Source of the DNA: Neisseria macacae ATCC 33926
GTDB taxonomy: Bacteria; Pseudomonadota; Gammaproteobacteria; Burkholderiales; Neisseriaceae
Direction of reading: 5' to 3'
Assembly: GCF_022749495.1 (NCBI RefSeq)
Contig: NZ_CP094241.1
Coordinates: 844,188 to 876,187 of the forward strand
Length of the DNA stretch: 32,000 nt
The notes under the pieces were generated by a model. That model saw only the letters and a program-made list of their open reading frames with translations. It searched no databases and was not told the origin of the DNA. Shown one piece after another: positions 30,429 through 30,548 of this stretch. The translations under genes and the position numbers were made by a program. Each line of letters opens with the position of its first letter. Position 1 is the first letter of the stretch.

Positions 30429-30548
30429 TGGGCGGTTTAGGCAGTAAAACGGCCAAAGTAAAAAGCTGGACAAAAGAAATGCCGAATCGCCCACTTATCC
30501 TAAAGATTGAATACCATCATAGCCGTGCAAACAGGCTGAATCATAAGG
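30429..30548 (+). ncRNA. Candidate bridge/seek-RNA-like guide region in the recombinase 5' UTR
   Basis: A 14-bp stem (30429-30443 with 30480-30493) closes a 36-nt loop. The loop carries AAACGGCC (30447-30454, target left half plus core C) and ACAAAAG (30470-30476, reverse complement of core plus target right half). ATACCATC (30511-30518) equals the phage right end plus core C. Confidence 0.35.

What the first reader, a model, noticed from the sequence alone, without database searches (positions are those of the whole stretch)
30429..30548. Candidate bridge/seek-RNA upstream of the phage IS110 recombinase, with guides matching both halves of the target and the phage end
The 150 nt between the post-zot terminator and the recombinase ATG (30557) has no ORF. 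TGGGCGGTTTAGGCA (30429-30443) pairs with TGCCGAATCGCCCA (30480-30493). This gives 14 bp including two G-U pairs and one bulged A, closing a 36-nt loop. The 5' side of the loop is AAACGGCC (30447-30454). That is the 7 nt left of the core plus the core C, matching the rep site 8/8 and the chromosomal site AGACGGCC 7/8. The 3' side is ACAAAAG (30470-30476), the reverse complement of CTTTTGT (core plus right flank), matching the chromosomal site 7/7 and the rep site 6/7. The two segments would therefore pair with opposite DNA strands on opposite sides of the core, as described for the target-binding loop of IS110 bridge RNAs. A further 57 nt on, ATACCATC (30511-30518) equals the 7 nt preceding the core at the phage right end plus the core C (31643-31650). 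Both left-guide candidates stop at the core C and are followed by A. The layout suggests an RNA-guided integrase serving a whole filamentous phage rather than a minimal IS. There are caveats. The matches were found by eye in A-rich sequence. The right donor guide is weak, since only ATAAG at 30543-30547 is the reverse complement of CTTAT. A second juxtaposition, ACAAAAG-AAAACGGC, lies at 31517-31531 downstream of the recombinase next to a hairpin (31527-31549), so the RNA could instead be 3'-encoded as in IS1111-type elements. An identical copy lies at 17913-18032 on the minus strand.
Basis: inference. Interest (0 to 1): 0.85.

Follow-up and report, generated by a model that had tools for sequence, protein, structure and literature searches.

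The report
Bridge RNA guiding a filamentous phage integrase
A Neisseria filamentous prophage carries, just upstream of its IS110-type recombinase gene, a conserved structured RNA whose loops spell out both the chromosomal insertion site and the phage ends, so the phage most likely chooses its integration site with a programmable guide RNA.

Summary
Window 30402-30550 (identical copy 17911-18059, minus strand) encodes a structured RNA directly 5' of a DEDD/Ser recombinase homologous to IS621 and ISCro4.

About 160 related loci conserve this RNA. They come from Neisseria, Uruburuella, Conchiformibius and Simonsiella, and include the meningococcal Nf1/MDA phage.
- Its stems covary: 18 of 20 pairs show double changes.
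- The 7 nt at 30470-76 is the exact reverse complement of CT+5 nt of the right chromosomal flank in 50 of 64 non-redundant cases, and 6/7 in the other 14. The set has 19 distinct flanks. Foreign flanks match in 1.8%.
- The left target guide follows the left flank (ACGGCC, ACGACC, ACGTCC, CTCGCC, AAAACC, TCCCGC).
- The left donor guide follows the phage right end (ATACCATC, ATATCATC, CTATCATC, GTAGCATC, ATATAATC).

Targets are DUS-hairpin terminators, or dRS3 for Nf1/MDA.

In the window, a second phage copy sits inside the first copy's rep gene, at a site that matches the guides.

This is an IS110 bridge-RNA system carrying a whole ~7.3-kb phage. Expression and the promoter remain untested. I found no paper describing it.

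The parts
30365..30406 (+). Strong conserved hairpin (AAAACCCGCAAACCGTTTT...AAGACGGTTTGCGGGTTTT) directly 5' of the RNA. It is either the terminator of the zot operon or a 5' element of the RNA.
   Evidence: Present with different, compensating stem sequences in 16 of 19 diverse relatives folded (alignment). Its role is undecided.
30404..30425 (+). 5' stem-loop with a GCGC(A) loop (UUUUGUUU-AGCGC-AAAACAAAA).
   Evidence: The stem differs but is kept in relatives: L007 UCGGAUAU/AUAUCCGA, L149 UGCGGUAU/AUACCGCA, L085 UUUUGAUUG/CAAUCAAAA. IS621 bridge RNA also begins with a 5' stem-loop (PMC11208160).
30429..30493 (+). Target-binding loop. The outer stem is 30429-30443 paired with 30480-30493, enclosing both target guides and a small distal hairpin (30457-59 with 30465-67).
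   Evidence: RNAalifold consensus. 13 + 3 pairs, 96% and 93% of cells paired, 15 of 16 pairs with changes on both sides. Slid controls give 25-43% paired.
30447..30454 (+). Left target guide AAACGGCC. It has the same sense as the top strand left of the core and ends on core C; the effective part is the last 6 nt.
   Evidence: Matches the site in rep 8/8 and the chromosomal DUS site AGACGGCC 7/8. Across 35 left junctions found independently of the guide, the 6-mer matches 6/6 in 17 and 5/6 in 15. Foreign flanks match 6/6 in 4%.
30470..30477 (+). Right target guide ACAAAAG, the reverse complement of CTTTTGT (core CT + 5 nt), followed by an invariant A at 30477 in the position of a handshake guide.
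   Evidence: 7/7 to the element's own right flank in 50 of 64 non-redundant RNA/flank pairs and 6/7 in 14, with 19 distinct flanks. Foreign flanks give 7/7 in 1.8%. The invariant A complements the invariant T before the donor core (inference; handshake concept from PMC11208158).
30506..30549 (+). Donor-binding loop. It contains conserved AUUGA, the left donor guide AUACCAUC (30511-18), the distal hairpin AGCC/GGCU (30521-24 with 30534-37) and the right donor guide GAAUCAUAAG (30538-47). The right donor guide overlaps the recombinase Shine-Dalgarno AAGGA (30545-49).
   Evidence: The left donor guide equals the 7 nt before the core plus core C at the phage right end (31643-50). It covaries with that end in relatives: ATACCATC, ATATCATC, CTATCATC, GTAGCATC, ATATAATC. 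The hairpin is conserved, with 3 of 4 pairs showing double changes. In the right donor guide, AUAAG is the reverse complement of CTTAT of the left end; L010 and L149 have a contiguous 7-nt match.
30557..31507 (+). IS110-family DEDD/Ser recombinase, 316 aa.
   Evidence: Pfam DEDD_Tnp_IS110 plus Transposase_20. NCBIfam NF033542 'IS110 family RNA-guided transposase', 200.9 bits against a cutoff of 140. PDB hits ISCro4 9t56 (E 5e-49) and IS621 8wt6 (E 6e-46). D7, E56, D97, D100 and S236-G237 are invariant.
31508..31651 (+). Right end of the phage. It contains the recombinase terminator hairpin (31527-49), a -35-like TTGACA (31630-35), the left donor half GATATACCAT (31640-49) and core CT (31650-51).
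   Evidence: A TTGAC-like hexamer at a fixed distance from the core is conserved in relatives. Circle or tandem junctions ...ATACCAT-CT-TATATATTGC are seen directly in L025, L028 and L059. They give TTGACA-N16-18-TATAT(A/T).
16301..16340 (+). Left junction of the outer prophage: DUS inverted-repeat hairpin GGCCGTCTGAAA...TTTCAGACGGC, core CT (16328-29), then the phage left end TATATATTGCG.
   Evidence: The same junction is present in the single prophage of N. flavescens (L005). Joined to 31650-31661 it reconstructs the original site as a DUS terminator followed by its T-tract.
17911..18059 (-). Second, identical copy of the bridge RNA, in the inner prophage.
   Evidence: Covariance model hit of 150.5 bits, E 2.8e-29. 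Repeat I1.
16810..24472 (-). Complete second prophage copy in inverted orientation, inserted into the rep gene of the outer copy and bounded by the core dinucleotide (AG on the + strand) at 16810-11 and 24471-72.
   Evidence: Repeats I1 and I2. Junction reading. The intact 441-aa rep spans 22859-24184 and is collinear with L005.
23975..23996 (+). Intact copy, in the inner prophage's rep gene, of the pseudo-target CAATCAAACGGC-CT-TTTGAATCAG. The same site in the outer copy received the second insertion.
   Evidence: It is one of only two sites in the window within 1 mismatch of ACGGCCTTTTGT. It matches the left target guide 8/8 and the right target guide 6/7.

Best explanation
Window 30402-30550, possibly starting at about 30365, encodes an IS110-group bridge RNA that serves as the specificity subunit of the phage's integrase.

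What the RNA contains:
- a 5' stem-loop
- a target-binding loop, whose 5' strand (..ACGGCC) pairs with the bottom strand left of the CT core and whose 3' strand (ACAAAAG) pairs with the top strand from the core rightwards
- a donor-binding loop that reads the joined phage ends in the same way (AUACCAUC for ...ATACCAT-C; ..AUAAG for CT-TAT..)

Proposed mechanism. The DEDD/Ser recombinase (30557-31507) binds the two loops. It synapses the circular replicative form (attP = GATATACCAT-CT-TATATATTG) with a chromosomal site. Here that site is the 3' half of a DUS-hairpin terminator plus its T-tract (TTTCAGACGGC-CT-TTTGT). It then exchanges strands at CT.

Basis for each step:
- Shown here: RNA structure conservation, guide-flank covariation, recombinase homology and the junction sequences.
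- Inferred by homology to IS621 and ISCro4: RNA-protein binding, the order of strand exchange and handshake pairing.
- Unknown: the RNA's promoter, its 5' and 3' ends, and how the prophage excises.

How it differs from a minimal IS110. About 6.1 kb of phage genes (a small ORF, rep, coat, tspB, zot) lie between the left end and the RNA. The RNA is therefore not next to the junction promoter. The donor circle can also be supplied by phage infection or replication.
For: 1. Structure. The 36-sequence alignment A2 gives an RNAalifold consensus in which 17 of 20 pairs show compensatory changes. In the independent count, 95.8% of cells are paired against 25-43% when partners are slid by 1-3 columns, 18 of 20 pairs change on both sides, and 0 of 500 shuffles reach the observed values. 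G-U pairs are frequent, which points to an RNA read from the + strand.

2. Right target guide. It matches the element's own flank 7/7 in 50 of 64 cases and 6/7 in 14, over 19 distinct flanks. Examples: GAAAAAG/CTTTTTC, GGAAAAG/CTTTTCC, CGAAAAG/CTTTTCG, TAAAAAG/CTTTTTA, CACAAAG/CTTTGTG, CGGCAAG/CTTGCCG, TTCGTAG/CTACGAA, GGGGGAG/CTCCCCC, AAAGCAG/CTGCTTT, CGCGTAG/CTACGCG. Foreign flanks match 7/7 in 1.8%.

3. Left target guide. It follows the left flank, including the DUS dialects ACGGCC and ACGACC, and ACGTCC, CTCGCC, AAAACC and dRS3 TCCCGC.

4. Left donor guide. It equals the element's own right end and changes with it in five variants. In the window ATACCATC occurs only at those places.

5. 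Recombinase. It is homologous to two experimentally proven bridge recombinases and keeps the catalytic residues.

6. Natural experiment inside the window. The second phage copy inserted at the only other site in the window that fits the guides with at most one mismatch per guide. That site lies in the first copy's rep gene, and the insertion has the orientation the site dictates.

7. Variability within one clade. Among 23 near-identical RNAs, the most variable columns include the left-target-guide column (ACG[G/A/T]CC) and the 5' end of the right target guide. The others are the donor-loop hairpin loop and compensating stem pairs.

8. Reach of the model. Covariance model R1 also gives weak hits in the same position upstream of recombinases only 34-38% identical.
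Against: - There are no expression data. No sigma-70-like promoter was found just upstream on the + strand.
- A strong hairpin that looks like a terminator sits immediately 5' of the RNA.
- The left target guide is short (about 6 nt). The nucleotide 7 nt 5' of core C is usually mismatched. In Nf1/MDA phages the guide lies 1 nt further 5', so core C is not paired.
- The right donor guide in the window's clade gives only 5 contiguous pairs.
- A basal stem closing the donor-binding loop was not established.
- Rfam 15 gives no hit, and I could not run the published bridge-RNA covariance models.
- The loci are phylogenetically related, so the counts are not independent events.
- A few prophages fit their left flank poorly (L084, 4-5 of 7).
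Confidence: 0.9

Rival explanations
1. The guide RNA is encoded 3' of the recombinase in the right end (31508-31652), as in IS1111/seekRNA elements. The ACAAAAG-AAAACGGC pair at 31517-31 next to the 31527-49 hairpin would then be the guide.
For: The motif pair is present. The region folds well (z = -5.3), and ACAAAAGAA pairs with the CUUUUGU of the flank in the fold.
Against: Across 64 non-redundant elements, the last 150 nt of the right end contain the complement of the element's own right flank in only 4. Among the 9 elements that target CTTTTGT, only 1 has it. Relatives with other targets keep ACAAAAC-AAAACGGC unchanged. The hairpin plus flanking A- and T-runs is an ordinary terminator. The recombinase's closest solved relatives, IS621 and ISCro4, carry their bridge RNA in the left end, 5' of the recombinase gene.
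Confidence: 0.02
2. The conserved upstream region is only a 5' UTR, an autoregulatory leader or a terminator region for the recombinase gene. On this view the similarities to the att sites are chance in A-rich DNA, and the protein alone recognises the sites.
For: The single-sequence fold is not unusual (z = -1.46). The right donor guide overlaps the Shine-Dalgarno sequence, so a translational role is plausible. The older literature describes the protein as the site-specific integrase (PMC7058167).
Against: Chance cannot explain 50 of 64 exact 7-mers at one fixed position across 19 different flanks. Nor can it explain parallel changes in the left target and left donor guides. A regulatory role may coexist with guiding but does not explain these data.
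Confidence: 0.03
3. The RNA module is a relic of the minimal IS that the phage captured. It is conserved by hitch-hiking and no longer determines the site, and new insertions arise by homologous recombination or transformation.
For: Prophage spread by transformation has been proposed for Nf1 (PMC7058167). Several prophages have one imperfect guide.
Against: Very similar phages sit in different sites with matching guide changes, for example L003, L004 and L044. The 100%-identical second copy in the window went into a guide-matching site inside rep, where no homology-driven route is apparent. Compensatory stem changes show ongoing selection on the RNA fold.
Confidence: 0.04

Closest known systems
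IS621 / ISCro4 bridge RNA-guided recombinases (IS110 group; Durrant et al. 2024, PMC11208160; Hiraizumi et al. 2024, PMC11208158)
   Same: Homologous DEDD + Tnp(Ser) recombinase. The RNA is encoded directly 5' of the gene. The RNA has a 5' stem-loop followed by a target loop and then a donor loop. Left guides have the sense of the top strand and right guides are antisense, and both reach into a CT core. A -35 box in the right end completes a promoter across the circle junction. The right-donor-guide pairing is interrupted, as reported for IS621. The nucleotides after the right guides fit the handshake model.
   Different: The element is a ~7.3-kb filamentous phage. About 6.1 kb of phage genes separate the left end from the RNA, so the junction promoter is not adjacent to the RNA. 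The left target guide is about 6 nt and the right target guide 7 nt, against 9 and 4 in IS621. The left guides pair with core C but carry A opposite core T. The donor circle can arise by phage replication. Sequence similarity to any curated RNA family is nil.
Nf1-Nf4 / MDA filamentous prophages of Neisseria integrating through their own IS110-family (PivNM/Irg) transposase at dRS3 with a CT motif (Kawai et al. 2005, cited in PMC7058167)
   Same: Same gene order (rep, tspB, zot, recombinase at the right end), same CT core and same type of ends. The Nf1/MDA group (L061-L083) carries the same RNA (119.8 bits). Its ends match the published Nf1 primers.
   Different: The literature I could search attributes site choice to the protein and does not mention an RNA. 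The window's phage, and most phages from commensal Neisseria, target DUS terminators rather than dRS3.
IS1111-group elements with a 3'-encoded seekRNA/bridge RNA
   Same: Same recombinase superfamily and same principle of RNA-guided site choice.
   Different: Their RNA lies in the right end downstream of the gene. That position shows no guide-flank agreement here.
CTXphi-type integrating inoviruses
   Same: A filamentous phage that integrates site-specifically and forms tandem or complex prophage arrays.
   Different: From general knowledge, CTXphi uses the host XerCD recombinases on a folded ssDNA attP. It has no phage-encoded recombinase and no guide RNA.

Membership tests
IS110-group bridge RNA / recombinase system | Recombinase with a RuvC-like DEDD domain plus a Tnp domain carrying the catalytic serine | tested here: met
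   Pfam PF01548 + PF02371. NCBIfam NF033542, 200.9 bits against a cutoff of 140. IS621 and ISCro4 hits over the full length. D7, E56, D97, D100 and S236-G237 are invariant in A1 and correspond to IS621 D11, E60, D102, D105 and S241-G242.
IS110-group bridge RNA / recombinase system | Conserved structured non-coding RNA encoded immediately upstream of the recombinase CDS | tested here: met
   Alignment A2, structure, covariance model hits at 30402-30550 and 17911-18059. 163 of 175 fetched loci plus the window contain the loose donor-loop sequence pattern I used to locate the RNA; that count includes some spurious matches on other strands or positions.
IS110-group bridge RNA / recombinase system | Architecture of a 5' stem-loop, then a target-binding internal loop, then a donor-binding internal loop | tested here: inconclusive
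   The 5' stem-loop and the target loop (outer stem plus distal hairpin) are supported by covariation. The distal hairpin of the donor loop is supported. A basal stem closing that loop could not be established; the candidate CCU(U)/(A)AGG would overlap the right donor guide and the Shine-Dalgarno sequence.
IS110-group bridge RNA / recombinase system | Left target guide matches the top strand left of the core, and right target guide is the reverse complement from the core rightwards, with covariation across orthologues | tested here: met
   Right target guide 50/64 exact and 14/64 one mismatch, against 1.8% for foreign flanks. Left target guide 17/35 exact and 15/35 one mismatch, against 4%.
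IS110-group bridge RNA / recombinase system | Donor loop complementary to the joined element ends (left and right donor guides) | tested here: met
   The left donor guide equals the right end in all 101 loci where an end was found by that criterion, with five covarying variants. In the right donor guide, AUAAG is the reverse complement of CTTAT in all. It is contiguous over 7 nt in L010 and L149 and interrupted in the window's clade. Donor ends vary little, so the right donor guide rests on conservation rather than covariation.
IS110-group bridge RNA / recombinase system | Dinucleotide core (CT) shared by target and donor and covered by the guides | tested here: met
   CT is present at every junction read. 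Both right guides end in AG. The left guides cover C only and are followed by A.
IS110-group bridge RNA / recombinase system | RNA lies in the left end next to the circle-junction promoter that drives it | tested here: not met
   The -35 box in the right end and TATAT(A/T) after the core are present. The RNA, however, starts about 6.1 kb downstream of the left end, behind the phage genes and a terminator-like hairpin. No local promoter was found.
IS110-group bridge RNA / recombinase system | RNA is expressed, binds the recombinase and is required for recombination | not testable with these tools
   Needs RNA-seq or Northern blots, binding assays and recombination assays. The main texts of two Neisseria transcriptome papers mention no such RNA; their supplements were not searched.
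IS110-group bridge RNA / recombinase system | Match to a curated or published bridge-RNA covariance model | tested here: inconclusive
   Rfam 15 gives no hit at gathering threshold, and only noise at E up to 10. I could not tell whether Rfam holds a bridge-RNA family. The models of Durrant et al. were not available.
IS1111-group (3' seekRNA) element | Guide RNA encoded in the right end downstream of the recombinase | tested here: not met
   The complement of the right flank is present in the right end in 4 of 64 cases. The right-end motif is invariant across elements with different targets.
Nf-type filamentous prophage (Inoviridae of Neisseria) | Rep_trans initiator, TspB, Zot-like assembly ATPase, and an IS110-family recombinase at the right end, with CT at both junctions | tested here: met
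   Pfam hits, ORF map, junctions, collinear with N. flavescens L005.

The most novel reading that the evidence does not exclude
Filamentous phages of the Neisseriaceae, including the meningococcal disease-associated phage MDA/Nf1, use a bridge RNA as a programmable integrase guide and retarget by point mutations in two short guide segments. This lets them follow whatever abundant repeat the host offers. Examples are terminators built from the local DNA-uptake-sequence dialect (ACGGCC for GCCGTCTGAA, ACGACC for GTCGTCTGAA) or dRS3.

Both degenerate R positions of the dRS3 Nf1 subtype consensus ATTCCCRCCTRCGCGGRAAK face a guide G or U, so G-U wobble would accept either purine.

If so, this would be a natural case of an RNA-guided recombinase moving a multi-kilobase replicon, with the RNA acting far from the junction promoter.
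Probability: 0.6. Interest if true: 0.78.

Novelty: new variant of a known kind. Interest (0 to 1): 0.66.

Why it matters
Nf-type phages have been thought since 2005 to integrate through their own IS110-family transposase. IS110 enzymes were shown in 2024 to be guided by bridge RNAs. The two facts have not been joined in any paper I could find.

What the link would provide:
- It identifies the RNA and assigns its four guides.
- It explains why Nf1/MDA goes to dRS3 while commensal-Neisseria phages go to DUS terminators.
- It predicts insertion sites from sequence alone. That is useful for typing MDA-positive hyperinvasive meningococci and for understanding Nf-driven genome rearrangements.
- It shows that nature already uses bridge recombination to insert a ~7.3-kb replicon with the RNA positioned kilobases away from the recombining left end. 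This bears on the design of large-cargo genome-editing tools.
- It supplies dozens of natural guide/target pairs for studying mismatch and wobble tolerance.

Tried and rejected
1. First model of the prophage ends. I initially took 23989 as the phage left end and proposed a junction promoter reading into 23989-24200, with a long hairpin there as an alternative RNA. The single prophage in L005 showed this was wrong. That segment is the start of rep on the other strand, and the true left end is CT-TATATATTGCG.

2. Rfam scans at gathering threshold and at E up to 10 gave nothing relevant.

3. The single-sequence fold is not informative (z = -1.46).

4. The promoter scan found no convincing + strand promoter upstream of the RNA. 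Aligning the upstream 170 nt across clades showed no shared -35/-10. It showed only the conserved hairpin, plus a CGCAATAAAAT block in some clades.

5. I tried to use the distant element L167 (38% identity, covariance model E 5e-4) as a minimal-IS comparison. Its right target guide matches only 5/7 and I could not place its left end, so I dropped it.

6. The 3' right-end alternative was tested and rejected.

7. The main texts of two Neisseria dRNA-seq papers mention no transcript at this position. Their supplements were not searched.
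Full report
**What is in the window**

The window is Neisseria chromosome. It carries DNA uptake sequences and Correia-type repeats. It also carries two 100%-identical copies of an Nf-type filamentous prophage in opposite orientation. Pfam identifies Rep_trans (24478-25602 is the truncated outer copy; the intact 441-aa rep is 22859-24184 on the minus strand), TspB (27094-28707), Zot (29006-30181) and an IS110-family recombinase (30557-31507).

My first reading of the ends was wrong. 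A single prophage of the same type in N. flavescens (L005, recombinase 96% identical) corrected it. There the left junction is TTTCAGACGGC-CT-TATATATTGCGCCC and rep is uninterrupted.

Applied to the window, this gives the following:
- The outer prophage is 16328-16811 plus 24471-31651, on the + strand.
- A complete second copy (16810-24472, minus strand) sits inside the outer copy's rep gene.
- The insertion site reads CAATCAAACGGC-CT-TTTGAATCAG on the minus strand.
- The chromosomal site, rejoined from 16301-16329 and 31650 onwards, is a DUS inverted-repeat terminator with its T-tract: GGCCGTCTGAAAGAATTTTCAGACGGC-CT-TTTGTATTCC.
- The circle junction GATATACCAT-CT-TATATATTGC is seen directly in three related contigs (L025, L028, L059).

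**Checking the observation**

All quoted strings are at the stated coordinates. The MFE fold of 30407-30556 contains the proposed stem, but the fold energy is ordinary (z = -1.46). ATACCATC occurs four times in 32 kb against 0.42 expected, at the two RNA copies and the two right ends. The minus-strand copy is confirmed.

One detail needs correcting. An in-frame ATG at 30479, inside the stem's 3' arm, lets the ORF be called as 342 aa, and some database entries do so. Most relatives are 316-320 aa and begin at the 30557 start, which has AAGGA 8 nt upstream.

**Comparative evidence for an RNA**

The recombinase has thousands of relatives. With an alignment of twelve (A1), I fetched 175 loci from genomes, viral contigs and metagenomes. 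The roughly 150 nt upstream of the start codon is conserved down to about 41-45% protein identity, in Neisseria spp., Uruburuella, Conchiformibius and Simonsiella.

A 36-sequence alignment (A2) gives a consensus structure in which 17 of 20 pairs carry compensatory changes. Counting pairs independently gave these results:
- 95.8% of cells are standard pairs, against 25-43% when the 3' partners are slid by 1-3 columns.
- 18 of 20 pairs change on both sides.
- 0 of 500 shuffles reach the observed values.

G-U pairs are common, which fits an RNA read from the + strand.

A 5' stem-loop with a GCGC(A) loop (30404-25) is also kept with different stem sequences. A stronger hairpin (30365-30406) lies just before it in most clades. 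A covariance model built from A2 (R1) finds exactly two hits in the window, 30402-30550 (+) and 17911-18059 (-), each at 150.5 bits and E 2.8e-29. It also gives weak hits in the same position upstream of recombinases only 34-38% identical.

**Guides against flanks**

I located each element's right end by its donor sequence and compared the 7 nt CT+5 of the flank with the RNA. In 64 non-redundant RNA/flank combinations (19 distinct flanks), the reverse complement is present at the position of window 30470-76 in 50 cases exactly and in 14 with one mismatch. RNAs paired with foreign, different flanks reach 7/7 in 1.8%.

| Right target guide | Flank (CT+5) | Example |
|---|---|---|
| ACAAAAG | CTTTTGT | window |
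| GAAAAAG | CTTTTTC | |
| GGAAAAG | CTTTTCC | |
| CGAAAAG | CTTTTCG | |
| TAAAAAG | CTTTTTA | |
| CACAAAG | CTTTGTG | Uruburuella |
| CGGCAAG | CTTGCCG | Conchiformibius |
| TTCGTAG | CTACGAA | Simonsiella |
| GGGGGAG | CTCCCCC | |
| AAAGCAG | CTGCTTT | |
| CGCGTAG | CTACGCG, or CTGCGCG through G-U | Nf1/MDA at dRS3 |

I found left junctions only from the conserved left-end motif CTTATAT, without using the guide. In 35 junctions, the 6 nt ending on core C match the RNA at the position of 30449-54 exactly in 17 and with one mismatch in 15. Foreign flanks match 6/6 in 4%. The variants seen are ACGGCC, ACGACC, ACGTCC, CTCGCC, AAAACC, CCTG(U/C)AC and, for dRS3, TCCCGC. Several single mismatches are G-U-compatible (L007, L036, L149).

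The left donor guide equals the phage right end and changes with it: ATACCATC in the window's clade, ATATCATC in most, and CTATCATC, GTAGCATC and ATATAATC elsewhere. The right donor guide always ends in AUAAG, the complement of CTTAT at the left end. It extends to 7 contiguous nucleotides in L010 and L149, and to 9 of 10 in the AAUAAAUAAG clades. It is interrupted by one nucleotide in the window's clade. IS621 is reported to have a discontiguous right-donor-guide pairing as well.

The nucleotide after the right target guide is an invariant A, complementary to the invariant T before the donor core. The nucleotide after the right donor guide is an invariant G, complementary to the C that precedes the core in nearly all targets. 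This is what the handshake model of IS621 predicts. Here it is an inference from sequence.

Within one clade of 23 near-identical RNAs, the most variable columns include the left-target-guide position ACG[G/A/T]CC and the 5' end of the right target guide. The rest are the donor-loop hairpin loop and stem pairs that change together.

**The protein**

The recombinase reaches NCBIfam NF033542, "IS110 family RNA-guided transposase", at 200.9 bits against a cutoff of 140. It aligns over its whole length with ISCro4 (9t56, E 5e-49) and IS621 (8wt6, E 6e-46), the only two solved relatives. D7, E56, D97, D100 and S236-G237 are invariant among relatives. They correspond to the IS621 DEDD motif and S241-G242.

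**The 3' alternative**

The right-end region folds well. However, the complement of the flank is present in the last 150 nt of the right end in only 4 of 64 elements. Among the 9 elements that target CTTTTGT, only 1 has it. Relatives with other targets keep the motif unchanged. It is the recombinase terminator with an A-rich leader.

**How it most likely works**

The RNA is a bridge RNA of the IS110 group. The recombinase, loaded with the target loop and the donor loop, synapses the circular replicative form with a chromosomal site that fits about 6 + 7 guide nucleotides around CT, and exchanges strands there.

The window contains a natural test of this. The second phage copy went into the first copy's rep gene at CAAACGGC-CT-TTTGA. 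That site matches the left target guide 8/8 and the right target guide 6/7. It is one of only two sites in the window within one mismatch of the 12-nt target. The insertion has the orientation the site dictates.

The element differs from a minimal IS110 in these ways:
- About 6.1 kb of phage genes lie between the left end and the RNA.
- The circle-junction promoter (TTGACA 31630-35, then 16-18 nt, then TATAT(A/T) after the core) reads into the small ORF and rep, not directly into the RNA.
- The RNA sits behind a terminator-like hairpin, and I found no local promoter.
- The guide lengths are about 6 and 7 nt, against 9 and 4 in IS621.

Expression, the RNA ends and the route of excision are unknown.

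**Wider picture and novelty**

Loci L061-L083 are Nf1/MDA-type. Their ends match the published Nf1-specific primers. They carry the same RNA (119.8 bits). The published dRS3 Nf1 subtype is ATTCCCRCCTRCGCGGRAAK. Both R positions face a guide G (left target guide AAUCCCGC) or U (right target guide CGCGUAG), so wobble pairing would accept either purine. This is an inference.

Most phages from commensal Neisseria instead target the 3' half of DUS-hairpin terminators. Their left target guide mostly agrees with the DUS dialect, ACGGCC or ACGACC.

Searches of the held literature found the IS110 bridge-RNA papers, and papers on Nf/MDA integration by an IS110 transposase at dRS3. None connects the two.

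I therefore rate this as a new variant of a known kind. The mechanism is the known bridge-RNA mechanism. The carrier, the position of the RNA within the element and the targets are new. The protein family is already named "RNA-guided" in NCBI annotation, so the existence of some guide RNA is expected rather than surprising.

Noticed in passing
window 16810-24472 (minus strand), inside the outer prophage 16328-31651: One prophage copy is inserted into the rep gene of the other, identical copy at a pseudo-target, giving a head-to-head pair in which the outer rep is disrupted. This looks like self-targeting by the phage's own guide RNA.
   Followed up: yes
window 31630-31651 joined to 16330-16338: The right end carries TTGACA 16 nt before the end of the core. 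In the circle it is followed by TATATATT, which would make a junction promoter, as in IS110 elements. Here it would read into the small ORF (16401-16619) and rep rather than into the RNA.
   Followed up: partly
window 30479-30556: An in-frame ATG inside the RNA's stem lets the recombinase be annotated as 342-344 aa in several database clusters (P0001, P0002, P0004, P0006, P0007). This is probably a start-codon misannotation that hides the RNA.
   Followed up: partly
window 30365-30406: A 17-19-bp hairpin immediately 5' of the RNA is kept with different stem sequences in most clades. It is U-tailed in some and not in others, so it is unclear whether it is a terminator or part of the RNA.
   Followed up: partly
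window 3747-3795, 4341-4389, 4441-4504, 5814-5930, 7050-7171, 13377-13493: Several copies of a repeat with TATAGTGGATTAA termini in direct and inverted arrangement. These look like Correia-type elements.
   Followed up: no
window 1123-1173, 1578-1628, 3830-3903, 4598-4640, 8695-8745, 13339-13381, 16301-16328: Hairpin terminators built from inverted DNA uptake sequences. Both dialects occur in this genome: GTCGTCTGAA (most copies) and GCCGTCTGAA (the occupied site). Site 8701-8712 (ACGACCTTTTGT, minus strand) is an unoccupied site one mismatch from the guides.
   Followed up: partly
L080 4810-4953 (-) and 9845-9993 (+); L081 7-150 (-) and 5056-5204 (+): Two different RNA types, Nf1-like and L096-like, lie on one contig in opposite orientation. 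This suggests adjacent or nested prophages of different guide classes. In L065 an Nf1-type RNA is paired with a left end of the other class.
   Followed up: no
L031 2804 and 3001: Two copies of the phage left end CTTATATATTGCGCTC lie 197 nt apart, and only the first is preceded by a DUS-type left flank. This may be a remnant or a partial duplication.
   Followed up: no
recombinase residues 129-259 (window about 30941-31333): A sub-threshold NCBIfam match to the TIGR-Tas RNA-guided endonuclease model (E 4e-8, 33.5 bits against a cutoff of 100).
   Followed up: no
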